IMG/VR virus record: IMGVR_UViG_3300025889_000071 | Origin: a virus | Lineage: Duplodnaviria; Caudoviricetes | Reading direction: 5' to 3' (one strand) | DNA length: 64,000 nt | Part shown: positions 7,101-61,662 of the stretch, in pieces | Layout: every line of letters begins with the position of its first letter | Numbering within the stretch: position 1 is the stretch's first letter | Made by a program: the position numbers and the translations under genes | Notes under the pieces: generated by a model | What the model saw: the letters and a program-made list of their open reading frames with translations, nothing else | Told to the model about the DNA's origin: nothing | Database searches by the model: none

Positions 7101-8971
7101 ATCAAGGTGATACTGGAGCACAGGGTAATCAAGGACATCAAGGAGACACCGGAGCTCAAGGTAATCAAGGTTATCAAGGCAATCAGGGCACTGAAGGTAA
7201 TTTCGGTGGTGCCACATTCTATTACACCTTTGAAACAAATACTACAGATGCCAATCCTGGTGCTGGAGATTTAAGATTAGACAACTCTACGCAAAATGCT
7301 GCAACTGGTATCTATATCTGTGATACTGATGAGAGCGGTAATGATATATCATCTTATCTACAAACTATTGATGACTCTACGAGCACTATCAAGGGCCATG
7401 TCAAAATTTCAAACAAAACAGACGCAAGTCAATTCATATTATTCACAATTTCCAGCCTGACTGACAACACTGGTTATTTTGATATTACAGTAAGTCCTGT
7501 TGACTCATCAGCAACCAATCCATTTAGTGATGGTGAAGACATTATCATTACTTTTGCTAGAACTGGTGATAAAGGAGACACTGGAGCTCAAGGCAATCAA
7601 GGTTATCAAGGTAACACTGGAGCACAAGGAGACACTGGTGCTCAAGGTAATCAAGGTAACACTGGAGCACAAGGAGACACTGGTGCTCAAGGTAATCAAG
7701 GTAATCAAGGTGATACTGGTGCTCAAGGTAATCAAGGTAATCAAGGACATCAAGGAGACACTGGTGCTCAAGGTAATCAAGGACATCAAGGTGATACCGG
7801 AGCTCAAGGTAATCAAGGTCATCAAGGAGACACCGGAGCTCAAGGTAATCAAGGGCATCAAGGAGACACTGGTGCTCAAGGTAATCAAGGACATCAAGGA
7901 GACACTGGTGCTCAAGGTAATCAAGGACATCAAGGACATCAAGGTGATACGGGTGCACAAGGAGATGTTGGTGCACAAGGTAATCAAGGACATCAAGGAC
8001 ATCAAGGTGATACGGGTGCACAAGGAGATGTTGGTGCACAAGGTAATCAAGGACATCAAGGACATCAAGGTGATACTGGTGCACAAGGTAATCAAGGACA
8101 TCAAGGACATCAAGGTGATACCGGAGCACAGGGAAATCAAGGATATCAAGGTGATACTGGAGCACAGGGTAATCAAGGACATCAAGGTGATACCGGAGCA
8201 CAGGGAAATCAAGGTTATCAAGGCGATGATGGTGCTCAAGGATTCCAAGGTGAAGCTGGAGGTGGAGGCGGCGGTGGTGGATTTGACACCGGAATCACAA
8301 CCTCTGCTTATGCTTCTTCATCGGATGATATTGATGGATTCACTGCTATTGGTGTCACTTTCCCGGCAACTGCAAGTAAGAGATATGTCATTGAAAGTGT
8401 GCACATCACAAATGTGACAGCAAGTGATTTGTATGTGACCACTAGAATGGATTATGATGGTGGACAGAATGTTCCAATCACGAATAAAATTATTGTTCCT
8501 TATCAAGGTGCACTAGAAGTTGTTGATCAACCACTGGTCGCAAATCCATCAGACAATCTTCGTTTTGCTTCTTATGCTGGTCTCGGAACTAATCCTGCAG
8601 GAGTTGCAAATGGTCTTGATTGTTGGATTACATATAAGCAAGATGATGCAACGGATTATATTGGAATCGGTTCAAATATTACTGCAACCACAGATCAAAC
8701 AGTCTTTACTTCTGTCACTAATCCATCAGTAATTAATACGATTGTGCTTGCAAATTATAGTGATACTGTAGATGTTGATGCATCTATTTCTATTTTCAGA
8801 GGTGGTTCTGTTCGTGTTGGATATCTGGCATATAATCTTACGATTCCTCAAAACAGCAATGTTCAGATTCTTCCAAGACAAAAGAGAATCGAAGCCACTG
8901 ATACAATTGTTGCCACAGCATCAGTTGCAAATGCTTTAACTGTGAATGTTGCAGGCAAATATATAACCTGA
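4109..8971 (+). CDS. Collagen-like tail fibre/spike protein, 1620 aa
   Basis: N-terminus [14 protein letters not shown]...[16 protein letters not shown] (Mtd N-terminal-like fibre anchor), [16 protein letters not shown] motif, four long Gly-X-Y tracts, three copies of a ~120-aa globular domain, C-terminal beta-rich domain. Confidence 0.85.
4517..8257 (+). repeat. Four coding Gly-X-Y tracts (approx 4517-5128, 5498-6100, 6452-7198, 7568-8257)
   Basis: 9-nt units ggtaatcaa / ggtgctcaa / ggagacact / ggacatcaa encoding [12 protein letters not shown]. Confidence 0.95.
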
Positions 8972-10253: not shown

Positions 10254-12176
10254 ATGTCTGGAGTTTTTGGTTTATCGGATGTAAGAACGGAGCAAATAGA
10301 TAGAACCTGGCCAGAATTTACGAATTATGGTTATTTTGTTGGTGGTGTAGCTCCTCCTGGATTTGCAGAGTCACGTATTGATCGATTTGAGATAGCAACG
10401 GAAACAATAAGTCAACCACCTAACTTTAGTCAGTATAGCTCTGGTCAAGCAATTTCGGATGCTGTAGAAGCTTCTTCATCAGAATATGGTTATATTGCTG
10501 GAGGTGATAATAGAGGAGGTAGTCCTGCAGCGAGAAGTTATATACGTAGAATTGATTTTTCACACGAACTTGATAGTGTTGTAGGGATCACACAAATTCC
10601 TGCCACACTACCTGCGAATCAGGACAACATGGCATCAATTTCCACCCCACAATATGCATATTTTGGTGGTGGTGCTGCTCCTTATGTGTGTAATATTCAT
10701 AGACTTGAATTCTCATCAGAAACAATGTCTACAGATGCTTCAAATCTCACACAAAATAGAGGATTTCTTGCAGGTGTATCTGGTTCTCAATATGGATATT
10801 TTTGTGGAGGATTTTCCACTCCACCTCCAACCAGACATTCTACAATTGATAGGATGGATTTTTCTACAGAAACTGGAAGTGTTCCTCCTGTTGAAGGTCA
10901 ATTGACAGTTGGAAGAAGTCACCTCAATTCTTTTGAGAGTTCAGAACATGGTTATATTGTTGGTGGTTTGACACCGGTTGTTTGTACCGTTGACCGATTA
11001 GATTTTTCTTCAGAAACTGTTGCGGCAACTACAGGAGTACCTGAAATAATAGCGGCAGGAATAGATTTTTCTGTTAAAGAATATGGTTATATTGGTGGTA
11101 ATGGCCCAGGAGCAAAATCCACTATCTATAGATTTGAGTTTTCATCCGAAACATTTTCAGCACCAGGAGCAATTTTAAGTAGTGTGAGGGGTTATGGTTC
11201 TGGAGTTAGAGACAGTAGTCGTATAAAACCAAATTCACTGAAAGGAACTGATATTGATGGAGTTCCTATTTCCAGCACTTATGGATATTTTATTGGTGGT
11301 TTTTCTTTTAGTACTCCACCTCCGGTCACTAGTTATCACACTACTATTGACCGCATCAATTATTCTACCGAAACTGTATCGTCTAATATATCTCCTAGAG
11401 GATATTTATCTTCACCAGGAAGAAATGGTGCAGGAGCAGTATCTAATTTCAATTATGGGTATGTTGCTGGTGGACTTTCTCCAATTAAAACAACAGTTGA
11501 AAAGATGGATTTTACTAATGAAATTACATCATTACCGGGAAATAATTTATCTCAAGCAAGAGCATATTTAGCAGGAGTTTACAATAATAATTATGGATAT
11601 TTTTGTGGAGGATTCCATCCAACACCAGCATATTATAGCACTATTGATCGTATTGATTTTTCTACAGAATCTGTATCAACTCCTCCGGTAAAAATGAATA
11701 ATGAATTGAGTATACCTAATGGTGGAACCGTATTTAATCCAAGTTATGCATATATAACTGGATTTAACGGATATGTTTGTACTATTGACCGATTAGAATT
11801 TTCTACAGAAACAATGGTAGAACCATCCCAGCAATTAACTAGAGCGGCTTTGGGTTTTGGTACATTGCAGAATTCAAATTATGGTTATTTTTGTTCTGGA
11901 AGAACTTCACCAACTGTGCGTCCGGCAGTCATAGATCGTATGGATTTTTCAAATGAAACTGTAAGTTCACCTATTGGCAATGTGTCTCAAGCAAGACCGG
12001 GTTTAGCAGGAGTTTACAATAATAATTATGGTTATCTTGGTGGAGGAGAAATACCACCACTTAGTCCTGATTATGTCTGTACAATTGACCGATTAGAATT
12101 TTCAAATGAAACAGTATCGGAACCAAGTTCAGAATTGACAAGAAGTAGAAGCAATGCCAGAGGCCTCTCAAACTAA
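10254..12176 (+). CDS. Kelch-like beta-propeller repeat protein A (12 repeats)
   Basis: 12 repeats of YGY(F/I)xGG...IDR(L/I)(D/E)FS.ET, arranged 6+6 around a linker TDIDGVPISS. Confidence 0.75.
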   Translation: MSGVFGLSDVRTEQIDRTWPEFTNYGYFVGGVAPPGFAESRIDRFEIATETISQPPNFSQYSSGQAISDAVEASSSEYGYIAGGDNRGGSPAARSYIRRIDFSHELDSVVGITQIPATLPANQDNMASISTPQYAYFGGGAAPYVCNIHRLEFSSETMSTDASNLTQNRGFLAGVSGSQYGYFCGGFSTPPPTRHSTIDRMDFSTETGSVPPVEGQLTVGRSHLNSFESSEHGYIVGGLTPVVCTVDRLDFSSETVAATTGVPEIIAAGIDFSVKEYGYIGGNGPGAKSTIYRFEFSSETFSAPGAILSSVRGYGSGVRDSSRIKPNSLKGTDIDGVPISSTYGYFIGGFSFSTPPPVTSYHTTIDRINYSTETVSSNISPRGYLSSPGRNGAGAVSNFNYGYVAGGLSPIKTTVEKMDFTNEITSLPGNNLSQARAYLAGVYNNNYGYFCGGFHPTPAYYSTIDRIDFSTESVSTPPVKMNNELSIPNGGTVFNPSYAYITGFNGYVCTIDRLEFSTETMVEPSQQLTRAALGFGTLQNSNYGYFCSGRTSPTVRPAVIDRMDFSNETVSSPIGNVSQARPGLAGVYNNNYGYLGGGEIPPLSPDYVCTIDRLEFSNETVSEPSSELTRSRSNARGLSN

Positions 12177-12206: not shown

Positions 12207-13844
12207 ATGAAGTCCGGAGCAACTGAAAGTTCTTTTTATTATCTTGCTCAACATTATACTTTTCCAGAGAATGTTGATGTTAAGAGAACGACGAATGAAA
12301 TTATAAAGTCCAATAAACAGTATAAAATTATCTGGGCTCATGATAATTGTGACCAGATGGGACACAAAGACCTTCCACAATATGTGAATAAAATTGATGG
12401 CATTGTTTGTGTTTCGAACTGGGAACGAGAGCAGTATATAAAGTATAAAAGAGCACCAGCAGAGAAACTTCATGTAATTCCAAACGGAGTTCATGATATG
12501 TTTCGTCCTTCTGGAAAACCAAAATCAAAAACTTGTATCTTTTTTTCTGCACCACATAAAGGAGTTGCACCTTTAGTTCCAATTTGGAAGGAAGTTATTA
12601 AACATCATCCAGATGCAAAACTCAAAGTGTTTTCTTCGATGTCTCTTTATGGTGATATTCAACCAGGAGAAGGTGACAATGAAACAATCACAGGACCAAA
12701 TGGATTAGAGCCATCACCATTTATTTCTGTTTATAAAGAACTTCAGAAACTTCCTGGTGTTGAGTATTCACCTTGTATTGATCGTGAAGAGTTGCTACCT
12801 CATATTCAGGATGCAGCTTTTTATATTCATCCCAATGTTTGGGAGGAAACTTTTTGTGTATCATTAGCAGAAGCAATGTCTTGTGGATGCTTTCCAATAA
12901 CAACAGACATGGGAGCACTTCCAGAAACGGCAAATGGAATTGGAAAGTTTATTCCAATGTCAGGAAAAAACACACCAAGAGGATGGATACCTGACGAAAC
13001 ATTTCATAAAAACTTTGCCGAAGAAATGATTCGTGCTTTTCATTTCTTTGATGTTGCAAGAGATGAATATTATCAGGCATCAGAACTGATATCAAATTAT
13101 GCAATAGAAAATTATAATTGGAAAAGAGTTGCTGGACTGTGGAAAAGTTATATTGAAAAGTATGATGATTATTATGAAAGATTTTCCGAAATCTTAATGA
13201 CTCCATATGATCATATTGATTATCTCTATCAGATGAAGTATGAGCAATCAATAAATCCAAAAGTGATTTATGATATTGGTTCCAATTGTTTGCACTGGTC
13301 AAAGGTTGCACAAATGGTATGGAAAGATTCTAATATTTTTCATGTTGATGGATATGACCAATTCGAATCTCTCTATAAAAATAAGAAAGTTAATTATGCC
13401 ATTGAGGTATTAAGTTCAGTAGATGATAAAGTTGTAACTTATTTTCAGAATGCCAGAAATCATGGAGGGTGTTCTTATTATGAATTAAACTATAAGGATT
13501 TTCCTTATAATCAAAATGCATTTAGAAATCAACATTACTCTGAAGTTAAGAGAAGGACAAAGACTTTAGATACTCTAATCAGAGAGAAAGGATGGCCAAA
13601 ACCTGACTTGATTAAGATGGATGTTCAGGGATGTGAATTAGATATTATCAAAGGTGCTGTTAGTGCTATTAAATATTGTCCGAATATTATTCTTGAGTTG
13701 CAAAACAAAGAGTATATGAAAGGTGCTCCAATGAGAGATGAAGTCATTTCTTATATGAAATCGATTGGATATGTTCTGTCTTCACACTTTACACAAAACT
13801 CATCTGATGCTGATGGAGATTATCACTTCTCCAAACATAAATAA
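12207..13844 (+). CDS. Glycosyltransferase (GT-B, GT4-like) fused to FkbM-family methyltransferase
   Basis: IIWAHD, VCVSNW, HVIPNG, EETFCVSLAEAMSCGCFPIT (GT-B ExxxxxxxE); C-terminal IYDIGS...TLDTL...PDLIKMDVQGCELDIIKG. Confidence 0.85.
   Translation: MKSGATESSFYYLAQHYTFPENVDVKRTTNEIIKSNKQYKIIWAHDNCDQMGHKDLPQYVNKIDGIVCVSNWEREQYIKYKRAPAEKLHVIPNGVHDMFRPSGKPKSKTCIFFSAPHKGVAPLVPIWKEVIKHHPDAKLKVFSSMSLYGDIQPGEGDNETITGPNGLEPSPFISVYKELQKLPGVEYSPCIDREELLPHIQDAAFYIHPNVWEETFCVSLAEAMSCGCFPITTDMGALPETANGIGKFIPMSGKNTPRGWIPDETFHKNFAEEMIRAFHFFDVARDEYYQASELISNYAIENYNWKRVAGLWKSYIEKYDDYYERFSEILMTPYDHIDYLYQMKYEQSINPKVIYDIGSNCLHWSKVAQMVWKDSNIFHVDGYDQFESLYKNKKVNYAIEVLSSVDDKVVTYFQNARNHGGCSYYELNYKDFPYNQNAFRNQHYSEVKRRTKTLDTLIREKGWPKPDLIKMDVQGCELDIIKGAVSAIKYCPNIILELQNKEYMKGAPMRDEVISYMKSIGYVLSSHFTQNSSDADGDYHFSKHK
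13838..13843 (+). promoter_or_regulatory. Late promoter TAAATA
   Basis: Upstream of the 13876 ORF. Confidence 0.55.
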
Positions 13845-13875
13845 AAAAAATTGAACTGATATCTATAGGAGTTCT

Positions 13876-14721
13876 ATGTCAAATAATTATAAAGAAATTG
13901 CTCTTGCAAAATCCGATGAAGTTCTTGATGAGAGTAATGAATTTATGCTCAAGGTTCTTGCGGAGTGTGATCGTTGGAAAGAATCTGAAAGAGAACTTGC
14001 ACAAGGAAGGTCAAACTTCCAGATTGAAAAGTTTATCGTTCATGATAATTTTACCATTCCATCAGCATTCAAAGCTGCAATTATCAACCGCAAGTCTGTG
14101 GCAGAGAACCTTCTAAATGGAATTCAGGATGCAAAGAAAATTGTAAGAGAGTTTCATTATAAGTGGGAAGGTAAAGATAAAACTCAACCAATCTGGTGGA
14201 AGAATCGTGAAGGTGGTGAAGACCTTTGTTGGTATGATATTGATGAATTCAATTTTCATCGTTTTATTGATGGATTGAATGCTGGATTCAAAGCACAGAC
14301 AACTGAACTTGAATTCTTTGATAAATTGATTGAAAGATTAATCGAATTGAACGGTGGTCATCCTCCAACAAAAGAAGAATTTGATGCCGATCAACCAGTT
14401 TATTGGGAAAGAAGATTTGCCAACCAGGCTCTTGATGAACTTCTTGCTGCACAAACAGGAGTCTCTGGTGGTAATATTCGTTCTATGAGAAGAGCAACCG
14501 CACCAACAGTTCTTGAGGATGATGTGAATCGTATTAAGGAAGGCTATGCAGATCCAAGCAATTCAATCGCATTCCTTGAGAGTCTTCAGAGACATGTTGC
14601 TTCTGGTATTGAGGAAATTAGTGGACTATCAAATAATATTCTTCAAGGAAGAAAGGAGCAAACAAAACAATTAAGTGAGGAAAAAGTTTCGTTATTTAAC
14701 GAAGAACTTCGCAAAAAATAA
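13876..14721 (+). CDS. Hypothetical alpha-helical / coiled-coil protein
   Basis: Long ORF with aggag SD, charged helical composition, GRSNFQIEKFIV motif; no function recognised. Confidence 0.75.
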   Translation: MSNNYKEIALAKSDEVLDESNEFMLKVLAECDRWKESERELAQGRSNFQIEKFIVHDNFTIPSAFKAAIINRKSVAENLLNGIQDAKKIVREFHYKWEGKDKTQPIWWKNREGGEDLCWYDIDEFNFHRFIDGLNAGFKAQTTELEFFDKLIERLIELNGGHPPTKEEFDADQPVYWERRFANQALDELLAAQTGVSGGNIRSMRRATAPTVLEDDVNRIKEGYADPSNSIAFLESLQRHVASGIEEISGLSNNILQGRKEQTKQLSEEKVSLFNEELRKK

Positions 14722-14725
14722 GTAA

Positions 14726-16579
14726 ATGCCATCAGATGTTTTTGGGTTAGATGTAGTTTATGATAGACAGGTCGATTCTAATTGGCCAGAGTCTGCGAAT
14801 TATGGTTACTTTGGTGGTGGTATTGCTCCACCTTTTGTTTGTACAATAGACCGCATAGATTTTTCTAGTGAAACTGTATCGGAACCAAGTAGTGAATTAA
14901 CTCAAGCAAGATATCTGTTAGCAGCAGTTTCTAATTCTAATTATGGTTACTTTGGTGGTGGTTATGCTCCACCACCTTTTGTTTGTACAATAGACCGATT
15001 AGATTTTTCTAGTGAGACCGTAACAGCACCAAGTAGTAATTTAACTCAAGCAAGAAACGGTTTAGCGGCAGTTTCTAATTCTAATTATGGTTACTTTGCT
15101 GGTGGTTTATTTAATTCATCTTATCTTTGTACAATCGACCGTATAGATTTTTCTAGTGAAACTGTATCGGAACCAAGTAGTGAATTAACTCAAACAAGAC
15201 AGGGTTTAGCAGCAGTCTCAAATTCTAATTATGGATACTTTGCTGGTGGTACAGCTCCACCTTTTGTTTGTGCCATTGACCGACTAGATTTTTCTAGTGA
15301 GACTGTAGCAGTGCCACCAGTAGGAGATCAATTAACTCAAGCAAGATATCAATTAACAGCAGTCTCAAATTCTAATTATGGATACTTTGCTGGTGGTACA
15401 GCTCCACCTTTTGTTTGTACCATTGACCGACTAGATTTTTCTAATGAGACTGTATCGGAACCAAGTAGTGAATTAACTCAAGCAAGATATATTTTAGCAG
15501 CAGTCTCAAATTCCAATTATGGTTACTTTGCTGGTGGTAGTGTTCCAGCTATTGTTTGTACCATTGACCGTTTAGATTTTTCTAATGAAACTGTATCGGA
15601 ACCAAGCAGCAACTTAACTCAAGCAAGAAGTTATTTAGCGGCAGTTTCTGATGGAAAATCAATAAACGCAAAAGGAGTTAAAAAAGGAACTGATGTTAAT
15701 GGAGTTCCCATCTCTAGCACTTATGGATACTTTGGTGGTGGTGATGCTCCAGGTGTGGGTGTAGTATGCACCATTGATCGTATTGATTTTTCAAATGAAA
15801 CGACATCAGTTCCATCAGTTGATAATCAATTAAGTGCTGCGAGGGATGATTTAACGGCAGTTTCTAATTCTAATTATGGATATTTTGCTGGTGGTTTTTC
15901 TCCACCTTTTATTTGTACTATTGACCGTTTAGATTTTTCTAACGAAATTACATCAATACCAAGTAGTCAATTGACTAGAAAAAGGGGAGATTTATCATCA
16001 CTCTCTAATTCAAATTATGGTTATTTTGGTGGTGGTGCTAATCCACTCAGTACTTCTACTGTTGATCGTATAGATTTTTCAAATGAAACTGTATCTGAAC
16101 CTAGTTCAGATTTAACTCAAGCACGGCATGAACTTGCGGCAGTATCTAGTTCTAGTTATGGATACTTTGCCGGAGGAAATCCCCTTCGTAGCACGATTGA
16201 TAGATTAGATTTTTCTAATGAAACTATAATTGTCCCTCCAGTAGGAAATCATTTACCACAGGCTAGATCATTATTATTTGGAGTTTCTGATTCTAATTAT
16301 GGTTACTTTGCTGGTGGTTCTCCTCCAGCACATTCTACTGTTGACCGTTTGGATTTTTCTAATGAGACTACATCAGCTCCATCACCAGAATTAGGAACGA
16401 CAAGATTAGGACTTTCTGGAGTTTCTAATTCTAATTATGGTTACTTTGCTGGTGGAGATAATCCTTCCATTGGCTTTCTCAGTAGTTTTGATCGCATAGA
16501 ATTTTCTACTGAGACTATTTCAGCACCAGCAAATAATTTACCTCAACCAAGAGGTACTTTAGCAGGAGTCTCAAACTAA
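14726..16579 (+). CDS. Kelch-like beta-propeller repeat protein B (12 repeats)
   Basis: 12 repeats of SNSNYGYF(A/G)GG...CTIDR(L/I)DFS(S/N)ETV..PSS.LTQAR, arranged 6+6 around linker TDVNGVPISS. Confidence 0.8.
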   Translation: MPSDVFGLDVVYDRQVDSNWPESANYGYFGGGIAPPFVCTIDRIDFSSETVSEPSSELTQARYLLAAVSNSNYGYFGGGYAPPPFVCTIDRLDFSSETVTAPSSNLTQARNGLAAVSNSNYGYFAGGLFNSSYLCTIDRIDFSSETVSEPSSELTQTRQGLAAVSNSNYGYFAGGTAPPFVCAIDRLDFSSETVAVPPVGDQLTQARYQLTAVSNSNYGYFAGGTAPPFVCTIDRLDFSNETVSEPSSELTQARYILAAVSNSNYGYFAGGSVPAIVCTIDRLDFSNETVSEPSSNLTQARSYLAAVSDGKSINAKGVKKGTDVNGVPISSTYGYFGGGDAPGVGVVCTIDRIDFSNETTSVPSVDNQLSAARDDLTAVSNSNYGYFAGGFSPPFICTIDRLDFSNEITSIPSSQLTRKRGDLSSLSNSNYGYFGGGANPLSTSTVDRIDFSNETVSEPSSDLTQARHELAAVSSSSYGYFAGGNPLRSTIDRLDFSNETIIVPPVGNHLPQARSLLFGVSDSNYGYFAGGSPPAHSTVDRLDFSNETTSAPSPELGTTRLGLSGVSNSNYGYFAGGDNPSIGFLSSFDRIEFSTETISAPANNLPQPRGTLAGVSN

Positions 16580-18470
16580 ATACAACATAAGGAAATAGAT
16601 ATCATGCCATCAGGAGTATTTGGTTTAGAAAAAACATATAAGAAGCAAAGAAAAAAAGATTGGCCAGAGTCTGCGAATTACGGTTATTCTGTGGGAACCA
16701 CAAATCCTACACTTGCACCACCAACTGGAGGAGCTTGTATTATTGATAGACTGGATCTTTCTACAGAAGTTGTTTCTAGTCCTGGATCAATTGCGAATTA
16801 TACTTATGCCATGTTTGACATGTCATCCCTAATTGGTAGGAATTATGGATATCTTGTCGGTGGAAAATCTCCATATAGTGCTGGTGTTCATTGTACAATA
16901 GTAAGACTTGATTTTTCAAATGAAACTTTTGAGGATATTGGTACTCATTTAAATTCATCTAAACAATGGACTTCTAGTGTCAACAGTCCGGAATATGGAT
17001 ACGTTTGTAGTGGTAGAGTTCCAACTCCAGCAGACATATCTACCATAGATAGATTGGATTTTTCTAGTGAAACTTTAACGTCTTCACTATCCAATCTTAC
17101 GACATCTAGAACAAATGCTGGGTCAACTTATTCGACACAATATGGATATATTGCTGCTGGTTTTGATGGCACATCTAATGTTGCTACAATAGATCGATTT
17201 GATTTTACCAACGAATCATCATCTGTGATTTCTGGAACATTAAATAATCCAGGCAGAACCGGATTATCTCAACATATACAAAGTCAGAGTTATGGATATG
17301 TTGCTAGTGGCAGTTCATCTTATCCCACCGTAGTGGATAAAATTGATTTTTCAAATGATAGTTTTTCAAGAACAACAGATATAACTGTAGGAAGAGGTTC
17401 TGCTGGAGGAGCATCTACTTTAAATTATGGATACTTATTGGGAGGTATGTTTCCATATCGTTCTGATATGGATAGAATAGACTTTTCAACGGACAGTGTA
17501 TCAACACCTTCTTCAACACAAACTTTGAATAATAGGGGAGGTTCTACAGTAATTGCGGGTGGAATAAACAAGAGTGCAAAATCAAGAAGATATTTTCTTG
17601 ATGTTGATGCTGTCCCTATAGGAAATGCTACTGGTTACTTTGCTGGTGGTGGTGCTCCGGCTGTTGTTTGTACAATCGACCGTATAGATTTTTCTAATGA
17701 GACTGTATCGGAACCAAGTAGTGAATTAACTCAAGCAAGATATCAGTTAGCAGCAGTCTCAAATTCGAATTATGGGTACTTTGCTGGCGGTTTTGCTCCA
17801 CCTCAAGTTTGTACAATAGACCGATTAGATTTTTCTAATGAGACTGTATCAGCACCAGGTAATGATTTAACTCAAGCAAGACAGTATTTAGCATCAGTCT
17901 CTAATTCTAATTATGGTTATTTTGGTGGTGGTGCTACTACTCCATCTTATGTTTGTACTATTGACCGATTAGATTTTTCTAATGAAACTGTATCAGAACC
18001 AAGTAGCAATTTAACTCAAGCAAGAAATCAATTAGCAGCAGTCTCAAATTCGAATTATGGTTACTTTGCTGGTGGTGGTCCAGGTAATGTTTGTACTATT
18101 GACCGACTAGATTTTTCTAATGAGACTGTATCGGAACCAAGTAGTGAATTAACTCAAGCAAGAACTGCTTTAGCAGCAGTCTCTAATTCTAATTATGGAT
18201 ACTTTGCTGGTGGGTGGGCCCCACCTCAACTTTGTACAATAGACCGACTAGATTTTTCTAATGAGACTGTATCGGAACCAAGTAGTGAATTAACTCAAGC
18301 AAGAAATGGTTCAGCAGCAGTCTCTAATTCTAATTATGGATACTTTGCTGGTGGTGCTACTCCATCTTATGTTTGTACTATTGACCGACTAGATTTTTCT
18401 AATGAGACTGTATCGGAACCAAGTAGTGAATTAACTCAAACAAGATATACTGCAGCAGGAGTCTCTGGTG
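14786..18470 (+). repeat. Dispersed/tandem ~141-nt coding repeats shared by Kelch-like genes B and C
   Basis: An identical 57-mer gaccgactagatttttctaatgagactgtatcggaaccaagtagtgaattaactcaa starts at 15425, 18101, 18242 and 18383. Confidence 0.95.
16577..16582 (+). promoter_or_regulatory. Late promoter TAAATA overlapping the stop codon
   Basis: Upstream of Kelch-like gene C. Confidence 0.6.
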
Positions 18471-19174
18471 GATGGGCTACTGCACCATCAATCGGACCAA
18501 GATCTGGACCAAGAACATCTGTCAATCCTGGTGGTGAAGGTGGTGGAGGTGGTGAAGGTGGTGGAGGTGCATCATCACAAATGACATTTAAGTATTATGG
18601 TTATGGATCAAATACGGGAACTTTATCCGTTCACTGGGCACCAGGACCACCCACTTCTAATACAATCAGTGCCGCACTTCCATTTACTGCCGATGGTTCA
18701 ACAGTAACATCAATCTCCGGACAAACGCATCCAGGACCAGGACAAACTTGGAAATCTGCTACTGTAGATTTAAGTCCATTATCACCGAGCACCGGACACT
18801 TTGTATTTAAATATCGTACTGGAACAAGTTTTAGAGGAGACTTCCAACTTGATGATATGGAATTCACACACTCTGGAGGAACTGATGATTTAGATCCGGA
18901 TTTGAAGAGAACTGCATCAACCGATAATTGGCAAAAATGGAATGCTGGCCCACCAGCAACATACAATACATCTTTCTTTTCTAATGTGACAGTTTCAACT
19001 TCTGCTCCTGGTGGATGGAACTATGATGCCGGAGGAACACCATCTGGTTCTACTGGAACGACATCAGACTCTGATGGGAGTCCAACTGGATATTACATCT
19101 ATGCAGAAACTTCTTCACCAAACTATCCACAGAAATATATGTGGTTGAGAACTGCAACTCCGGTTACGATTTAG
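16604..19174 (+). CDS. Kelch-like repeat protein C (12 repeats) with Gly/Pro linker and C-terminal MAM-like domain
   Basis: 12 YGY..GG repeats, GGEGGGGGEGGGG linker, then F.YY.YG..TGTL.V, W....VDL, GDFQLDD and TPSGSTG...GYYIYAETS motifs. Confidence 0.8.
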   Translation: MPSGVFGLEKTYKKQRKKDWPESANYGYSVGTTNPTLAPPTGGACIIDRLDLSTEVVSSPGSIANYTYAMFDMSSLIGRNYGYLVGGKSPYSAGVHCTIVRLDFSNETFEDIGTHLNSSKQWTSSVNSPEYGYVCSGRVPTPADISTIDRLDFSSETLTSSLSNLTTSRTNAGSTYSTQYGYIAAGFDGTSNVATIDRFDFTNESSSVISGTLNNPGRTGLSQHIQSQSYGYVASGSSSYPTVVDKIDFSNDSFSRTTDITVGRGSAGGASTLNYGYLLGGMFPYRSDMDRIDFSTDSVSTPSSTQTLNNRGGSTVIAGGINKSAKSRRYFLDVDAVPIGNATGYFAGGGAPAVVCTIDRIDFSNETVSEPSSELTQARYQLAAVSNSNYGYFAGGFAPPQVCTIDRLDFSNETVSAPGNDLTQARQYLASVSNSNYGYFGGGATTPSYVCTIDRLDFSNETVSEPSSNLTQARNQLAAVSNSNYGYFAGGGPGNVCTIDRLDFSNETVSEPSSELTQARTALAAVSNSNYGYFAGGWAPPQLCTIDRLDFSNETVSEPSSELTQARNGSAAVSNSNYGYFAGGATPSYVCTIDRLDFSNETVSEPSSELTQTRYTAAGVSGGWATAPSIGPRSGPRTSVNPGGEGGGGGEGGGGASSQMTFKYYGYGSNTGTLSVHWAPGPPTSNTISAALPFTADGSTVTSISGQTHPGPGQTWKSATVDLSPLSPSTGHFVFKYRTGTSFRGDFQLDDMEFTHSGGTDDLDPDLKRTASTDNWQKWNAGPPATYNTSFFSNVTVSTSAPGGWNYDAGGTPSGSTGTTSDSDGSPTGYYIYAETSSPNYPQKYMWLRTATPVTI

Positions 19175-19177
19175 AAC

Positions 19178-19183
19178 TAAATA
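19178..19183 (+). promoter_or_regulatory. Late promoter TAAATA
   Basis: Upstream of the prolyl-hydroxylase-like gene. Confidence 0.6.
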
Positions 19184-19211
19184 TTTTTAAAGATTGAGAA
19201 ATTGAGTTTGA

Positions 19212-19871
19212 ATGAATCATTTACTTGGTAATATCCTTATTCAACCAAATGTTGTGACAAAGGAAGGATGTAAATATCTCACAGAATATGTAAAGAAGGC
19301 ACCCAAAATGAGGATGGGTGTTTATGATGCCGAAAAATCAAATGAAACAAAAAAGGATGAATCAAAAGTAGATCCAAATGTAAGAGATGTAGAGTGTGCC
19401 GATATACAACCAATCATGGCAGACGTTAAATCTCTTTATGATGATATGGTATATAATGTCATCAATCCTTTTTATGACTTTTATATCAACGATAGTGAAG
19501 TTCCCCAGTTTTTATATTATAGGGAAGGAGGACACTACAAACCTCATTATGATGGTGAAGCCTTATGGGTAAATCCTGATGGAACAAAGCAATGGAAAAA
19601 ATCTATTGATAGAGATATTTCTACTGTTTTATTTTTGAATGATGATTTTGAGGGTGGAGAGTTTGTATTTCCAAAATACAGAATTCGTATTAAACCAGAA
19701 CCAGGCCTTCTGATCGCATTTCCATCAACACATCATTATCTGCATGGAGTAGAACCAGTTAAATCTGGTGAGAGAATCGTCAGTGTTTGTTGGATGAGAG
19801 TAAAAGGAGTTCCAACAAAGGATGAGCAAGATAAACAGATTGCAGATAAATATGGAATAGAGGTCTATTAA
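19212..19871 (+). CDS. 2OG-Fe(II) oxygenase, prolyl 4-hydroxylase-like
   Basis: QFLYYREGGHYKPHYD, ISTVLFLNDDFEGGEFVF, LHGVEPVKSGER: HxD...H...R. Confidence 0.88.
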   Translation: MNHLLGNILIQPNVVTKEGCKYLTEYVKKAPKMRMGVYDAEKSNETKKDESKVDPNVRDVECADIQPIMADVKSLYDDMVYNVINPFYDFYINDSEVPQFLYYREGGHYKPHYDGEALWVNPDGTKQWKKSIDRDISTVLFLNDDFEGGEFVFPKYRIRIKPEPGLLIAFPSTHHYLHGVEPVKSGERIVSVCWMRVKGVPTKDEQDKQIADKYGIEVY

Positions 19872-19877
19872 TTTAAA

Positions 19878-20432
19878 ATGACACAACTTTTAAAACATTA
19901 TTGGGTAGATAGGGATAATACCAGTGTCTTTGCAATTTCTTCATCAATGTGGAGTCGTCCCAGATTTGGATATGTGGCTCCTAATATCGCAGGTCTTGAG
20001 ATCGTTCATAGAATAACTGATAGTAATGGTATTCCTTTTTGCTTATCGACTTGCCCCGATGATACTACCATCACAGAAGAAGATGGTCTTGAAATTCTGA
20101 CTCAAGCAGAATGGGATGCAGAAATTGCTACTTATGATACCGCACAAGAAACAAAAAGATATGTTGAGGTAAGAAGTATTCGAGATAAACTTCTGTCCGA
20201 GACTGATTGGATTGTCACAAAATCGTTGGAGACAGGTGTTGCTCTGTCATCAGAATTTACAACCTGGAGAACTGCTTTAAGAAATCTTCCAAATGGTTCT
20301 GAATTTCCACTTACTCTTCCTGATGCACCAGTTGCAGTTTCTGTAAGTAATGCAGAATATCTGGCACAAGTAACTCAAATTCCGATGATTAATGATCCAA
20401 ATGTTGTGGAAGAAGAATTACCTGGTGAGTAA
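19878..20432 (+). CDS. Tail fibre assembly chaperone-like protein
   Basis: VRSIRDKLLSETDWIV...WRTALRNLP matches the R.R..LL..TDW...YRQALRDLP tail-assembly chaperone pattern. Confidence 0.75.
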   Translation: MTQLLKHYWVDRDNTSVFAISSSMWSRPRFGYVAPNIAGLEIVHRITDSNGIPFCLSTCPDDTTITEEDGLEILTQAEWDAEIATYDTAQETKRYVEVRSIRDKLLSETDWIVTKSLETGVALSSEFTTWRTALRNLPNGSEFPLTLPDAPVAVSVSNAEYLAQVTQIPMINDPNVVEEELPGE

Positions 20433-20999
20433 GGAATAACACTTCTCATTTCTATCATAAGCATAGTCAGCATACTCACCATTCTTTCTGACATAGTGTA
20501 GAAAGAGTTGCATAAACCTATCGTTCTTATGTGTTCGTAGTGGTGACCTCCAGTGAGGAACGATAGTTCCAAGATATGCAACACCATGTCCAACAGGTGT
20601 CACGACCTCTCTACGCTTCCCTGTGAGGTCTTTAAGTTTAATAGGCCACTCTGCATCACCACAGATATTCATCGTTACAGAGACCTCACAGGAGGGTCTG
20701 TCAGTGTGACAATTCATCCATCCTTTATTATGATATGTTGTAGTAAACCAATATGATGGAATGAGTTCCTCTCCAAGTAGTTCTTCAAGAATAGGTTTCA
20801 TTCTCTTCACAACAAATGTGGAGGACTCTGGAGCATAACAACACATCACATTTCCTCTTTCAGGATCATAATGAGTTTTAAGACCTCCAAGATCATGAAT
20901 TGCACCCATTAGATTCTGATATTTAATTTGTATTGCTTCTTGTTTACTAATAATGTCTGGTATATAATGCCAACCTTTCTTTGCAAATGATGAAGTCAT
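20418..20999 (-). CDS. 2OG-Fe(II) oxygenase (only clear minus-strand gene)
   Basis: HTDRPSCEVSVTMNI...VPHWRSPL...QLFLHYV; minus-strand TAAATA at 21020-21025. Confidence 0.85.
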   Translation of the reverse strand: MTSSFAKKGWHYIPDIISKQEAIQIKYQNLMGAIHDLGGLKTHYDPERGNVMCCYAPESSTFVVKRMKPILEELLGEELIPSYWFTTTYHNKGWMNCHTDRPSCEVSVTMNICGDAEWPIKLKDLTGKRREVVTPVGHGVAYLGTIVPHWRSPLRTHKNDRFMQLFLHYVRKNGEYADYAYDRNEKCYSLLTR

Positions 21000-24776: not shown

Positions 24777-26338
24777 TGGCTCAGTGGAATAAAACTACAC
24801 AAGATTACCTCAATCAAGAGAGAAGTCTATTTGAGGTTTACATGTGTGCCGACAGATACGGCAACATTGATGGGTGCAATGGAACTGCGAGTGGTAGTGG
24901 TGCATTTGGAGAACAAATTGTATCTCAAATCACCCCAGTCCTTCAACTTGATGGTCTGTATGGTTTAAACTCAGATAGATTTGAACTCTACTCATTTGGT
25001 ACTGGTAGCACTAGTGATGCTAATAATTTGATGACTACATCAACAGGAACTGGTGCTTATGGTTATGGAGTTGTTCGTTCTAAAAGATCTGTAAGATATC
25101 GTCCAGGACAAGGTGCTCTCGCAAGATTCACAGCACAGTTTTCTGGTATTGCAACAGGATATACACAAAGAGCAGGATTCTTCACACAAGAGCAAGCACT
25201 TCAAGTTGGATACAGCACTGAAGGAAGGTTTGGTATTCTTCGTGAGAATGGTGGTAAAGCTCACATTCATAGATTTACTATCACAACACCTTCAAGTGGC
25301 ACAGAGAATATAACAGTCACTCTTGCTGGTGTCGCATCCACAGTTACTATTGGATCAGGAACAACAACACAAAACGCAACTGGTATTGGAACTCATACTT
25401 ATGCTGGTTGGATTGCCGACTATAAGAATGGTTATATTGATTTCTTATCCACAAGCGTCGGTCCAAAAACAGGCACATTCTCTATTGTAAGTAATGGTGA
25501 CCTGGTAGCTACATCAACAACTTCTCAAACAGGTGTAAATCATACAAGCAACTGGACATATCAAGAGGACTGGAACTTTGATACGATGACTGGTGTTGGT
25601 GGCACCACCAATCCATCAGGAGTTACATTAGATCCAACCAAACTGAATGTATACCAAATCAACTTCCGTTGGTTGGGTGCTGGTGAGATGAGATTTGCTA
25701 TTGAAAATCCCACAACGGGAGATATGATGCCCGTTCATCATATTCACTATACAAACAGGAATAATACTGTTCATTTAGATAATCCATCACTCAAGATTGG
25801 ATATGTGGCTGCCAATCTGGATGGTAATACTGGTGCTGGTGTAACAGTCTCTGGCGCATCTATGATGGGTGCGATTGAAGGTGTTATTAATACCACAACC
25901 CTTCCAATCGGTGCCTTTAGAACAAAGACTGGTGGAATGAATAGTACTGGCACAAAATTCCACCTGATTACCATTAAGGGCGGTATGATTGTCAATAACA
26001 AAATTAATACCAGAGAACTTATAGTAAAGAAAATTAGTGCTCTAACAACATCGGCAGGAACAGCACCTTGTTTTATCTATCTGTATATTGATCCAATAAC
26101 AGCAGATCCTTTAGATTTCACACCTCTTGGAAATGCTTCTTCATATTCAACAACTGATACAACAATCACTGGTGGAGATCCAGCAGCAGTTTTTTGTGTT
26201 ACATCGGGTGCTCCAGAAACAATTGATCTTGATGAGTTGAGAATTGTTTTACCACCACAAAGACTATTCACGCTAGCAATTTCTTCCAGTGCTGTTCTAC
26301 AAAATGCAGATGCTGCAATAACATTTGTTGAGGATTAA
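24776..26338 (+). CDS. Hypothetical beta-rich (Thr/Gly-rich) virion protein
   Basis: 520-aa ORF, TAATG coupled, composition typical of structural/fibre proteins. Confidence 0.7.
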   Translation: MAQWNKTTQDYLNQERSLFEVYMCADRYGNIDGCNGTASGSGAFGEQIVSQITPVLQLDGLYGLNSDRFELYSFGTGSTSDANNLMTTSTGTGAYGYGVVRSKRSVRYRPGQGALARFTAQFSGIATGYTQRAGFFTQEQALQVGYSTEGRFGILRENGGKAHIHRFTITTPSSGTENITVTLAGVASTVTIGSGTTTQNATGIGTHTYAGWIADYKNGYIDFLSTSVGPKTGTFSIVSNGDLVATSTTSQTGVNHTSNWTYQEDWNFDTMTGVGGTTNPSGVTLDPTKLNVYQINFRWLGAGEMRFAIENPTTGDMMPVHHIHYTNRNNTVHLDNPSLKIGYVAANLDGNTGAGVTVSGASMMGAIEGVINTTTLPIGAFRTKTGGMNSTGTKFHLITIKGGMIVNNKINTRELIVKKISALTTSAGTAPCFIYLYIDPITADPLDFTPLGNASSYSTTDTTITGGDPAAVFCVTSGAPETIDLDELRIVLPPQRLFTLAISSSAVLQNADAAITFVED

Positions 26339-26351
26339 AAGGAGTTTTGTT

Positions 26352-27230: not shown

Positions 27231-27241
27231 GTTTTTTGGAT

Positions 27242-27249
27242 TATAAATA
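27242..27249 (+). promoter_or_regulatory. Late promoter TATAAATA
   Basis: Exact consensus 9 nt before the endonuclease start. Confidence 0.75.
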
Positions 27250-27258
27250 ATTAAAAAA

Positions 27259-60449: not shown

Positions 60450-60643
60450 AGGATCAAAATTCTATTGATGATGAAGAGTCTAAACAAATTAAATGGAACA
60501 GGGGACTTGATTTATTCATTGAATCAGTTTTAAAACCGGACCATGCACTTAGAGAATGTGCACACAATCAAAAATGTTATCATGAACTAATGGATATTCG
60601 TGATGATGTACTGGAATACTTGAAAACCAAACGTTGGAACTAA
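60446..60643 (+). CDS. Hypothetical protein
   Basis: ATGA and TAATG coupled between gp43 and uvsX. Confidence 0.65.
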   Translation: MKDQNSIDDEESKQIKWNRGLDLFIESVLKPDHALRECAHNQKCYHELMDIRDDVLEYLKTKRWN

Positions 60644-61662
60644 TGGATTTTTTAAAAGATATTGTAAAAGAGATTGGTGATGATTATACCAAACTCGCAG
60701 CAGACATTGATGAGACTGAAACTTATGTTGACACAGGTTCGTACATTTTTAATGCACTGGTGTCAGGTAGTGTATTTGGTGGTGTATCTGGGAATAAGAT
60801 TACTGCTATTGCTGGAGAGTCTTCTACTGGAAAAACTTTCTTCAGTCTCGCCGTTGTTAAGAATTTTCTCGATTCCAATCCCGATGGTTATTGTCTCTAT
60901 TTTGATACTGAAGCAGCTGTCAATAAGTCACTCCTAGAAAGTCGTGGAGTTGATCTCACTCGAACTGTAGTTGTAAATGTTGTCACAGTAGAAGACTTTC
61001 GTAGCAAAGCACTCAAGGCAGTTGATATTTACTTAAAAAACCCTGAAGAAGAACGCAAACCCTGTATGTTTGTGTTAGACTCTTTAGGAATGCTTTCAAC
61101 GGAAAAGGAAATCAATGATGCTCTGAACGATAAGCAGGTTCGTGATATGACGAAATCTCAACTTATCAAAGGTGCCTTCAGGATGTTGACTTTGAAGTTG
61201 GGGCAGGCTAACATTCCTATGATTGTGACAAACCACACTTATGATGTCATCGGTTCTTATGTTCCTACTAAAGAGATGGGCGGTGGTTCTGGTCTTAAGT
61301 ATGCTGCCAGTACCATCATTTATCTCAGCAAGAAAAAAGAAAAAGATGGAACAGAAATTGTCGGAAATCTTATCAAAGCAAAGACTGCTAAGTCGCGTTT
61401 AAGTAAGGAGAACAAGGATGTTACAGTACGTCTTTATTACGATGAGCGTGGTCTTGATCGATATTATGGTCTTCTTGAACTCGGTGAGATTGGCGGACTT
61501 TGGAAAAACGTTGCTGGTCGATATGAAATGACTGTTGATGGTGAGACCAAAAAAGTATATGCCAAAGCAATTCTAAAAGAACCTGAAACTTATTTCACTC
61601 CCGAAGTGATGCAACAACTTGACGAGATCGCAAAGAAAGAATTCTCTTATGGAACGAATTGA
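60643..61662 (+). CDS. uvsX: RecA-like recombinase UvsX
   Basis: AGESSTGKT, VLDSLG, TNHTY, MGGGSGLKYAAS. Confidence 0.96.
   Translation: MDFLKDIVKEIGDDYTKLAADIDETETYVDTGSYIFNALVSGSVFGGVSGNKITAIAGESSTGKTFFSLAVVKNFLDSNPDGYCLYFDTEAAVNKSLLESRGVDLTRTVVVNVVTVEDFRSKALKAVDIYLKNPEEERKPCMFVLDSLGMLSTEKEINDALNDKQVRDMTKSQLIKGAFRMLTLKLGQANIPMIVTNHTYDVIGSYVPTKEMGGGSGLKYAASTIIYLSKKKEKDGTEIVGNLIKAKTAKSRLSKENKDVTVRLYYDERGLDRYYGLLELGEIGGLWKNVAGRYEMTVDGETKKVYAKAILKEPETYFTPEVMQQLDEIAKKEFSYGTN

What the first reader, a model, noticed from the sequence alone, without database searches (positions are those of the whole stretch)
14786..18470. Blade cassettes are DNA-identical across two genes while two loops are hypervariable: a recombinational repertoire?
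Seen: a 57-nt sequence is identical at 15425 (gene B) and at 18101, 18242 and 18383 (gene C, exact 141-nt period). Genes B and C also share ttggccagagtctgcgaatta near their 5' ends. Variation concentrates after GG (IAPPF, YAPPPF, LFNSSY, TAPPF, SVPAI, GAPAV, FAPPQ, ATTPSY, GPGN, WAPPQ) and after TQ(A/T)R (YLL, NGL, QGL, YQL, YIL, SYL, QYL, NQL, TAL, NGS). Known: these positions map to the ligand-binding face in Kelch propellers, and T4-like phages have strong UvsX/Y/W recombination. Inference: constant frameworks allow blade shuffling and gene conversion, diversifying host recognition without a reverse transcriptase, loosely like VLR cassette assembly.
Basis: partly seen in the sequence, partly recalled or inferred. 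Interest (0 to 1): 0.7.

Follow-up and report, generated by a model that had tools for sequence, protein, structure and literature searches.

The report
Shuffled hypervariable Kelch propellers in cyanophage
A marine T4-like cyanophage carries three paralogous double-propeller (Kelch) genes whose blades are nearly identical in DNA except for two surface loops, and close relatives show whole propellers and blade blocks swapped, so this looks like a recombination-driven way to vary a binding surface without a reverse transcriptase.

Summary
The 57-nt stretch is exact at 15425, 18101, 18242 and 18383, and the 21-mer is exact at 14782 and 16660.

- **Architecture:** genes A (10254-12176), B (14726-16579) and C (16604-19174) each encode 12 Kelch blades (6+6). 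Blades B1-6 and C7-12 form one homogenised pool.
- **Shared pool:** identical residues use the same codon in 82% of pairs, against 44% expected from codon usage. Blades cluster neither by gene (P=0.40) nor by genome (P=0.54).
- **Variation:** it sits in the loop after GG and the two residues after TQAR. There pN is 0.57 against pS 0.26.
- **Family:** the same two positions are the entropy peaks in 1145 unique blades from over 100 cyanophage contigs.
- **Module swaps:** four haplotypes with 94-99% identical flanks carry different propellers in the same slots, with sharp borders. One two-blade block sits in propeller 1 here and in propeller 2 in a relative.
- **Excluded:** the variation does not fit a diversity-generating retroelement, and no reverse transcriptase was found in relatives.

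Evolutionary recombinational shuffling with diversifying loops is supported. VLR-like programmed assembly and a host-recognition role are not shown. The closest analogues are Podospora HNWD WD40 repeats and T-even gp38. Other first-stage notes of this scan cover the same stretch.

The parts
10254..12176 (+). Kelch gene A, 640 aa, 12 blades (6+6), all diverged in this phage
   Evidence: Pfam PF24681/PF13415 weak hits; PHROG 19111 E 1.9e-106; blade segmentation. In relative L026 its second propeller (equivalent to W 11269-12087) is replaced by homogenised blades.
13876..14721 (+). 281-aa ORF of no known family, always just upstream of a Kelch gene
   Evidence: No PHROG hit and only a sub-threshold Pfam hit. 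The search that seeded on it recovered over 100 cyanophage contigs and S-SKS1.
14726..16579 (+). Kelch gene B, 617 aa, two six-bladed propellers joined by a linker
   Evidence: PF24681 69.7 bits (cut-off 50), PF13415 53.5 bits; AF2 model pLDDT 81; Foldseek TM 0.9 to KLHL3/Keap1/SAKe Kelch domains.
14782..14802 (+). 21-mer (WPESANY) shared with gene C; left border of the exchangeable propeller module
   Evidence: Exact copies at 14782 and 16660. Identity to L026 breaks just downstream of the encoded WPE.
14801..15658 (+). Blades B1-B6, homogenised pool. HV1 loops at 14822-14836, 14963-14980, 15107-15124, 15251-15265, 15398-15412, 15539-15553. HV2 at 14912-14917, 15056-15061, 15200-15205, 15347-15352, 15488-15493, 15629-15634
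15425..15481 (+). 57-nt exact repeat copy in blade B5 (encodes DRLDFSNETVSEPSSELTQ, the framework between the two loops)
15722..16576 (+). Blades B7-B12, semi-diverged second propeller of B
   Evidence: 22-31 of 114-120 framework nt differ from the nearest homogenised blade. The slot holds homogenised blades in L003, L026 and L136.
16604..19174 (+). Kelch gene C, 856 aa: propeller of old blades, propeller of homogenised blades, Gly-rich spacer, MAM-like C-terminal domain
   Evidence: PHROG 19111; Pfam MAM 33.8 bits on residues 620-856.
16679..17560 (+). Blades C1-C6, old diverged propeller, 90-99% identical to L026 (mostly 96-99%) but replaced by homogenised blades in L003
17630..18475 (+). 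Blades C7-C12, homogenised pool. Holds the 57-nt copies at 18101-18157, 18242-18298 and 18383-18439. HV1 at 17651-17665, 17792-17806, 17933-17950, 18077-18088, 18215-18229, 18356-18370. HV2 at 17741-17746, 17882-17887, 18026-18031, 18164-18169, 18305-18310, 18446-18451
   Evidence: The slot is only 56-68% identical to L026.
19878..20432 (+). Tail-fibre assembly chaperone-like gene downstream (context for a virion role)
   Evidence: Pfam Phage_tail_APC 30.8 bits; PHROG 4912 'tail fiber assembly' E 5.5e-27.
60634..61662 (+). UvsX-like recombinase (candidate engine of the exchanges, with gp46/47-like genes at 41490-44501 and a UvsW-like helicase at 38935-40416)
   Evidence: PHROG 97 E 4e-102; PHROG 100, 77 and 16.

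Best explanation
Genes A, B and C belong to a large, apparently phage-restricted family (PHROG 19111, function unknown). Members are double six-bladed Kelch-type beta-propeller proteins encoded in the fibre and virion-modification island of T4-like cyanomyoviruses. A pool of about 47-residue blades with a nearly constant DNA framework is shared among blades, propellers, paralogues and closely related phage strains. Homologous recombination at the constant frameworks and at conserved module borders moves two-blade blocks and whole six-blade propellers between slots. Those borders are WPES-NYGYF, the inter-propeller linker and the AGVSN-stop end. The exchange could be unequal crossing-over or gene conversion within a genome, or exchange between co-infecting phages, run by the phage's own UvsX/gp46/47 machinery. 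The B-C loop after GG and the two residues after TQAR ring one face of each propeller. They change faster than synonymous sites, most likely under diversifying selection. Together this gives a combinatorial repertoire of binding faces. Shown: the anatomy, the shared pool, the hypervariable positions, the module swaps. Inferred: the recombination mechanism, positive selection, and that the ligand is on the host cell surface.
For: Twelve blades per gene, split 6+6. Kelch fold. Same-codon use is 0.82 against 0.44 expected, and is equal within and between genes. Framework pS is 0.26 within B, 0.21 within C and 0.24 between them. Label permutation shows no clustering by gene (P=0.40) or by genome (P=0.54). 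In hypervariable codons pN is 0.57 and pS 0.26, giving dN/dS about 3.4 against 0.27 in the framework. A column-wise scan of 43 blades picks out the loop columns 7, 8, 29 and 64, 67 plus one E/N dimorphic framework column (58). Family-wide entropy peaks of 3.5-3.8 bits fall at blade positions 8, 9, 12 and 38, 39 in 1145 unique blades. There are 1051 distinct HV1 loops and 203 HV2 dipeptides. W against L026 and L003: flanks are 96-99% identical but propeller slots only 40-86%, with borders exactly at module edges. W_B3/B4 equals L003_B9/B10 (140/144 and 137/147 nt), a block shifted by one propeller. L136 is a fourth haplotype. Mosaicism tests: PHI-like P=0.018; Sawyer-type run statistic 395080 against 297230 +/- 17219. 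Exact shared stretches of 40 nt or more between blades occur in 59 of 81 family ORFs. Recombination genes lie in the window.
Against: No reads or long molecules could be examined, so the rate of exchange is unknown. The same pattern could arise from old, balanced propeller alleles moved between phages by ordinary recombination. Relatives are metagenome contigs, and repeats of 60-110 nt could mislead short-read assemblers. L026 and L113 agree at 99.9% over 12.3 kb, but they could derive from the same sample. The dN/dS contrast uses few, post hoc chosen sites. If conversion tracts stop at mismatched loops, old neutral loop divergence could mimic positive selection. The unsaturated pS in loop codons argues against this only weakly. 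Virion location and ligand are untested. The family is 'unknown function' in PHROGs, and all 1394+ relatives found are unnamed or labelled 'hypothetical protein'.
Confidence: 0.65

Rival explanations
1. Only whole-propeller alleles are exchanged. Each propeller is an old allele kept by frequency-dependent selection and moved between co-infecting phages by ordinary homologous recombination at module borders. There is no blade-level shuffling or gene conversion inside a genome.
For: Swap borders lie at propeller edges. Blades do not cluster by genome, so the pool belongs to the population. Pool divergence (pS about 0.26) is older than flank divergence (1-4% nt).
Against: The two-blade block W_B3-B4 = L003_B9-B10 is embedded among non-matching blades. 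B1-6 and C7-12 in one genome are as alike as blades within one propeller. Differences along blades are mosaic.
Confidence: 0.15
2. One-off recent amplification. A single blade was amplified to six or twelve copies and copied once into gene C. Since then only point substitutions, fastest in the loops, have occurred.
For: High internal symmetry is what freshly amplified propellers look like. The 141/144-nt tandem arrays fit this.
Against: There is no positional correspondence between B1-6 and C7-12 (matrix). Different slots are homogenised in different, nearly identical phages. The same feature occurs in 59 of 81 family ORFs, which would require countless independent amplifications.
Confidence: 0.07
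3. Targeted hypermutation, by a diversity-generating retroelement or another mutator aimed at the loops.
For: Extreme variation is confined to a few codons in a binding protein, as in DGR targets.
Against: No RVT_1 match in the complete S-SKS1 genome or in four related contigs. All three codon positions vary with all four bases, and the loops vary in length. This does not fit adenine-specific mutagenesis of a template repeat. No non-coding template copy was seen. The window's own ORFs were not scanned exhaustively for a reverse transcriptase.
Confidence: 0.02
4. Assembly artefact: collapsed or mis-ordered repeats in the window's assembly.
For: The S-SKS1 record starts and ends inside Kelch genes, which hints that these repeats trouble assemblers.
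Against: Both ORFs are intact with exactly 12 blades, the modal number in the family (55 of 167 ORFs). Each blade has its own loops. The longest exact repeat is 71 nt, shorter than ordinary reads. Independent contigs show the same architecture.
Confidence: 0.03
5. Same genetics, different job. The propellers are not adhesins but bind intracellular host proteins or defence factors, as Kelch proteins of poxviruses do.
For: Kelch domains are usually protein-protein adaptors. Foldseek hits include poxvirus Kelch proteins. No virion evidence exists.
Against: The genes lie in the late structural block between gp15 and the terminase. Neighbours are a collagen-like fibre gene, a tail-fibre chaperone-like gene and glycosyl- and methyltransferases. 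Gene C ends in a MAM-like adhesion domain. Loop composition is rich in Tyr, Ser, Gly and Asn.
Confidence: 0.15

Closest known systems
Podospora anserina HNWD / het-d, het-e WD40-repeat NLR genes (Paoletti, Saupe & Clave 2007, PMC1805685; Chevanne et al. 2010, PMC2873952)
   Same: Beta-propeller repeats are highly conserved in DNA within and between paralogues. Repeat units are exchanged within and between loci. A few residues per repeat on the interaction face are under diversifying selection. The result is a recognition repertoire.
   Different: WD40 rather than Kelch. A fungal intracellular immune receptor rather than a phage protein. RIP contributes there. Repeat number is polymorphic there, whereas close haplotypes here keep 6+6 blades. 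Here whole six-blade propellers are also swapped between phage strains.
gp38 adhesins of T-even phages: glycine-rich motifs alternating with hypervariable segments (Trojet et al. 2011, PMC3157838, citing Tetart et al. 1996, 1998)
   Same: T4-superfamily phage. Conserved framework motifs alternate with hypervariable segments. Genetic exchanges that change specificity occur in or near the conserved motifs.
   Different: No sequence or fold relation. gp38 is a small single-domain protein at the fibre tip, with receptor binding shown. Here there are 12-24 tandem blades in three paralogues, and the role is unproven.
Kelch-repeat propellers such as Keap1 and KLHL3 (PDB 2flu, 4ch9) and the designed symmetric SAKe proteins (8pjx)
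   Same: Six-bladed fold with TM about 0.9. GG doublet and conserved Arg. The variable positions align with the B-C and D-A loop residues, which in Keap1 contact ligand (own knowledge).
   Different: About 16% sequence identity. The Kelch Trp is not conserved. Tandem double propeller with near-identical blades. No BTB/BACK domain.
Diversity-generating retroelements (Bordetella phage BPP-1 Mtd)
   Same: A phage uses a constant scaffold with a few hypervariable surface residues to vary ligand binding.
   Different: No reverse transcriptase was found, there is no template repeat and no adenine bias. Here variation is spread over 12 or more repeated units and moved by recombination.
Lamprey VLR assembly
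   Same: Repeat modules with constant frameworks and variable concave-face residues are combined into receptors.
   Different: VLR uses silent flanking cassettes copied into an incomplete germline gene in somatic cells. Here all blades sit in complete expressed-looking ORFs, and nothing indicates programmed assembly.

Membership tests
Kelch-repeat beta-propeller | Score above Pfam gathering threshold for a Kelch family | tested here: met
   Gene B: PF24681 69.7 bits (cut-off 50) and PF13415 53.5 bits (cut-off 22). Genes A and C fall below or lack Kelch cut-offs, but all three match PHROG 19111.
Kelch-repeat beta-propeller | Repeats of 44-56 residues with a hydrophobic strand followed by a GG doublet, and a conserved Arg before strand A | tested here: met
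   47-49-residue units YGYF(A/G)GG ... TQAR. G7 is 99% and R18/R37 are 98%/79% conserved in 1145 blades.
Kelch-repeat beta-propeller | Six four-stranded blades forming a closed propeller | tested here: met
   AF2 model, pLDDT 81, two propellers. Foldseek TM 0.88-0.93 to Keap1, KLHL3 and SAKe. This is a prediction, not an experiment.
Kelch-repeat beta-propeller | Conserved Trp of the classical Kelch motif | tested here: not met
   The position aligned to the Trp of the SAKe repeat unit is Val/Thr.
Concertedly evolving hypervariable repeat receptors (HNWD type) | Repeats highly similar in DNA within and between paralogues, not clustering by gene | tested here: met
   Same-codon fraction 0.82 against 0.44 expected. 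Permutation P=0.40.
Concertedly evolving hypervariable repeat receptors (HNWD type) | A few positions per repeat with dN>dS, lying on the interaction face | tested here: met
   dN/dS about 3.4 at loop codons, with a column scan. The face was assigned from strand topology and the alignment to the SAKe Kelch repeat unit. No recombination-aware codon model was run.
Concertedly evolving hypervariable repeat receptors (HNWD type) | Repeat-number polymorphism between alleles | tested here: inconclusive
   Family ORFs have 12, 18, 24 or 27 blades. The four close haplotypes all keep about 12.
Diversity-generating retroelement target | Reverse transcriptase and a template repeat, with variation only at template adenines | tested here: not met
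   No RVT_1 in S-SKS1 or four contigs. All bases and codon positions vary and indels occur. The rest of this phage's genome is not available.
gp38-type modular adhesin | Homology to gp38 | tested here: not met
   No gp38 family among Pfam or PHROG hits.
gp38-type modular adhesin | Demonstrated receptor binding at the fibre tip | not testable with these tools
   Only gene context is available.
VLR-like programmed cassette assembly | Incomplete recipient gene plus silent donor cassettes | tested here: not met
   All 36 blades lie in three intact ORFs. No blade copies were found in the repeat scan of 13000-20500 outside the Kelch genes.
VLR-like programmed cassette assembly | Assembly within the lifetime of an individual or infection | not testable with these tools

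The most novel reading that the evidence does not exclude
The constant blade frameworks act as built-in recombination substrates. T4-type recombination-dependent replication would then produce blade-shuffled and loop-recombined variants of genes B and C at high frequency within single infections. A clonal lysate would already be a library of binding faces: a reverse-transcriptase-free, recombinational counterpart of a DGR in some of the ocean's most abundant phages.
Probability: 0.15. Interest if true: 0.85.

Novelty: new variant of a known kind. Interest (0 to 1): 0.62.

Why it matters
T4-like cyanophages are major killers of marine Synechococcus and Prochlorococcus, yet how they keep pace with host surface variation is poorly understood. 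This family has at least 1394 relatives in the searched protein collection, all unnamed or labelled hypothetical, and nearly all are singleton clusters at 90% identity. It offers a concrete, testable candidate for that role. It has a defined scaffold, defined hypervariable positions and natural module swaps among near-identical phages. If binding to host cells is shown, it would extend a principle to phages. That principle, repeat homogenisation plus diversifying selection, is known from fungal immune receptors, and in simpler form from T-even gp38. It would also give a natural symmetric Kelch scaffold with thousands of loop variants. The papers I searched described nothing like it in cyanophages.

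Tried and rejected
- **Whole genome:** not held for this window, so a reverse transcriptase or further paralogues elsewhere could not be sought.
- **Sequencing runs and read laying:** Population variation was therefore taken from related contigs only.
- **Near search in phage records:** only S-SKS1 matched the Kelch region, at 76% nt. tblastn found five records.
- **Alignment-based scan of genome contigs:** The single-protein scan found no relative in 185,579 prokaryote species genomes. It relies on close peptide patterns, so absence is weak evidence.
- **Two align_proteins calls:** failed on stop codons in tblastn ranges and were fixed.
- **Literature searches:** cyanophage + Kelch/propeller, S-SKS1, and phage + Kelch + gene conversion gave nothing on this family. 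PMC2938197 and PMC7159879 were read and proved irrelevant to the blades.
- **Longest matching run between blade pairs:** the maximum was not significant (P=0.40). Only the summed run statistic was.
- **Model coordinates:** not available to scripts, so loop positions were placed by topology and alignment, not by measured distances.
- **Considered and rejected:** codon bias as the cause of DNA identity, a DGR and assembly collapse.
Full report
**What is there**

The window is a T4-like cyanomyovirus. PHROG hits identify a gp13/14-like neck protein, gp15, gp18 sheath, gp20 portal, gp23 capsid and gp46, and also gp47, a UvsW-like helicase, gp43 and UvsX. Core genes are about 78% identical to Synechococcus phages SynMITS9220M01 and S-SCSM1. 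The phage itself is not in the phage collection.

Between gp15 and the terminase lie several genes. These are a collagen-like fibre gene, 2OG-Fe(II) oxygenases, glycosyl- and methyltransferases, a tail-fibre-chaperone-like gene and three paralogous genes:
- Gene A, 10254-12176.
- Gene B, 14726-16579.
- Gene C, 16604-19174.

Each gene encodes a short conserved head (..VFGL..Y..Q....WPES), six blades of about 47 residues, a linker, and six more blades. Gene C adds a Gly-rich spacer and a MAM-like domain.

Gene B passes the Pfam Kelch thresholds. All three match PHROG 19111, 'unknown function'. An AlphaFold2 model of B (19-sequence alignment, pLDDT 81) gives two six-bladed propellers. Foldseek matches Keap1, KLHL3 and the designed symmetric SAKe Kelch proteins at TM about 0.9.

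**Checking the observation**

- The 57-nt string is exact at 15425, 18101, 18242 and 18383. Pairwise exact runs reach 71 nt. The 21-mer is exact at 14782 and 16660.
- Tandem arrays of period 144 and 141 cover 14798-15628 and 17632-18466.
- Blades B1-B6 and C7-C12 form one homogenised set. B7-B12 are semi-diverged. C1-C6 and all of A are old, diverged blades.
- The DNA identity is not a by-product of protein conservation. Where two homogenised blades have the same residue, they use the same codon in 82% of cases. The window's codon usage predicts 44%, and old blades show 50-58%.
- The 57-nt piece is the framework segment DRLDFSNETVSEPSSELTQ between the two variable loops. Given about 11% framework divergence, one such run is not by itself proof of a conversion tract.

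**Where the variation is**

Variation among the 12 blades is concentrated in two places:
- The loop after GG (HV1, 4-6 residues, variable in length).
- The two residues after TQ(A/T)R (HV2).

Nei-Gojobori counts give pS 0.24 and pN 0.07 in the framework. The hypervariable codons give pS 0.26 and pN 0.57. After correction, dN/dS is about 0.27 and about 3.4 respectively.

An unbiased column scan used 43 homogenised blades from three phages. It flags the loop columns plus one E/N dimorphic site.

I built a blade HMM and searched all ORFs of the fetched loci. That gave 1611 blades in 167 ORFs, with 12 blades as the modal number and some ORFs holding 18, 24 or 27. In 1145 unique full-length blades:
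- Entropy peaks at positions 8, 9, 12 and 38, 39 (3.5-3.8 bits).
- Insertions occur only in HV1.
- There are 1051 distinct HV1 loops and 203 distinct HV2 dipeptides.
- The loops are rich in Tyr, Ser, Gly, Asn and Phe.

In the model, the strand order per blade is A (AAVS), B (YGYFG), C (TIDRLD), D (ETV). HV1 is therefore the B-C loop and HV2 is the end of the D-A loop, both on the same face. The HMMER alignment to the SAKe repeat unit puts HV1 on GG-YDGQDQ and HV2 on RR-SA. From my own knowledge, that unit corresponds to Keap1 blade 5 and these are Nrf2-contact positions (Y525, Q530, S555).

**Do blades cluster by gene?**

No.
- Framework distance within genes is 0.111 and between genes 0.112 (permutation P=0.40).
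- There is no positional correspondence between B1-6 and C7-12.
- Blades do not cluster by genome among W, L003 and L026 (P=0.54). The pool is therefore shared across closely related phages.
- A PHI-type test gives P=0.018.
- A Sawyer-type sum of squared matching runs on framework polymorphic sites is 395080, against 297230 +/- 17219 in permutations. This points to mosaic blades.

**Population variants**

IMG/VR and JGI metagenomes hold relatives whose flanks are 94-99% identical to the window. They are L026 and L113 (99.9% identical to each other over 12.3 kb), L003 and L136.

Sliding identity shows sharp mosaic borders.
- Against L026, A1-A6, the genes between A and B, the head of B, C1-C6 and the MAM domain are mostly 95-99% identical. 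A7-A12, all of B, and C7-C12 are 37-70%.
- Against L003, flanks are 96-100%, B1-B6 80-91%, B7-B12 60-74%, the C1-C6 slot 46-60% and C7-C12 72-82%.

Which slot carries homogenised blades differs between phages:
- A propeller 2: L026 only (the L003 contig starts downstream of gene A, so its slot is unknown).
- B propeller 1: W and L003.
- B propeller 2: L003, L026 and L136.
- C propeller 1: L003 only.
- C propeller 2: W and, in part, L003.

The breakpoints sit at WPE just before the first blade, at GVPISSTYG in the linker, and at AGVSN-stop.

W_B3 and W_B4 match L003_B9 and L003_B10 at 140/144 and 137/147 nt, loops included. Neighbouring blades match at only 83-87%. So a two-blade block lies in propeller 1 in one phage and in propeller 2 in another.

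Long exact stretches shared between blades are the rule in the family. The median is 50 nt, and 59 of 81 ORFs have 40 nt or more.

**What it is not**

- **Not a DGR:** no RVT_1 match in the complete S-SKS1 genome or four related contigs. All codon positions and bases vary, and loop lengths vary. The window's own ORFs were not scanned for a reverse transcriptase.
- **Not VLR-like assembly:** all blades are in intact ORFs, with no silent cassettes.
- **Probably not an assembly collapse:** ORFs are intact, blade number is the family mode, loops are unique, and the longest exact repeat is 71 nt. Reads could not be checked.

**Interpretation**

The best reading has three parts:
- A pool of blade cassettes shares a recent common origin.
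- Homologous recombination re-sorts that pool at several scales, from blade patches through two-blade blocks to whole propellers. This happens within genomes, between co-infecting phages, or both.
- The two loops are under diversifying selection.

Two uncertainties remain:
- The rate is unknown, so the pattern could also reflect old balanced alleles.
- Function is unproven. A virion adhesin is favoured by the structural-module context, the tail-fibre chaperone neighbour, the MAM-like tail of C and the paratope-like loop composition. No experiment supports it yet.

**Comparison with known systems**

- The closest analogue in mechanism is the Podospora HNWD WD40 family. There, repeats undergo concerted evolution within and between loci, and four surface residues per repeat are under positive selection (PMC1805685; PMC2873952).
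- Within the T4 superfamily, the nearest analogue is gp38. There, conserved glycine-rich motifs separate hypervariable segments, and specificity-changing exchanges occur in or near the conserved motifs (PMC3157838).
- The cyanophage Kelch family is related to neither in sequence. It appears to be phage-restricted (weak evidence), and all detected relatives are unnamed or labelled hypothetical.

I found no description of it in the searchable literature. I therefore rate it a new variant of a known kind of system.

Noticed in passing
window 26325-28984: The terminase large subunit is split. The Terminase_6N ATPase half is at 26325-27230 and the Terminase_6C nuclease half at 27821-28984. A GIY-YIG/NUMOD3 homing-endonuclease-like ORF (27259-27828) lies between them.
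   Followed up: partly
L001/L002 (S-SKS1, NC_020851.1: record 1-1226, about 201816-203180, 204948-207940): The S-SKS1 record begins and ends inside Kelch genes (SWZG_00001 is flagged incomplete). It also has an unannotated Kelch ORF of about 455 aa in the gap between SWZG_00286 and SWZG_00287. The repeats probably troubled assembly and annotation.
   Followed up: partly
window 13876-14721: A 281-aa ORF with no Pfam or PHROG family sits just upstream of a Kelch gene here, in S-SKS1 and in the related contigs inspected, and has relatives in over 100 cyanophage contigs. It may be an accessory or partner of the propeller proteins.
   Followed up: partly
window 14726-14800, 16604-16678, 10254-10325: All three Kelch genes, and the family at large, start with a conserved head of about 25 residues (..VFGL..Y..Q....WPES). 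It lies outside the propeller and is modelled with low confidence. It could be a docking motif.
   Followed up: no
L004 and L005 (IMGVR_UViG_3300023170_004678, 3300023180_008734): Relatives carry three genes of 1246 to over 1362 aa with about 24 blades each (four propellers). Distinct linkers recur at blades 6, 12 and 18.
   Followed up: no
window 18530-18569: A 9/18-nt tandem repeat (GGTGGTGAA) encodes the Gly/Glu spacer between the second propeller and the MAM-like domain of gene C. Its sequence differs slightly in L026.
   Followed up: no
window 4109-8971: A 1620-aa collagen-like tail-fibre gene (many PHROG tail-fibre families) lies upstream of the Kelch cluster.
   Followed up: no
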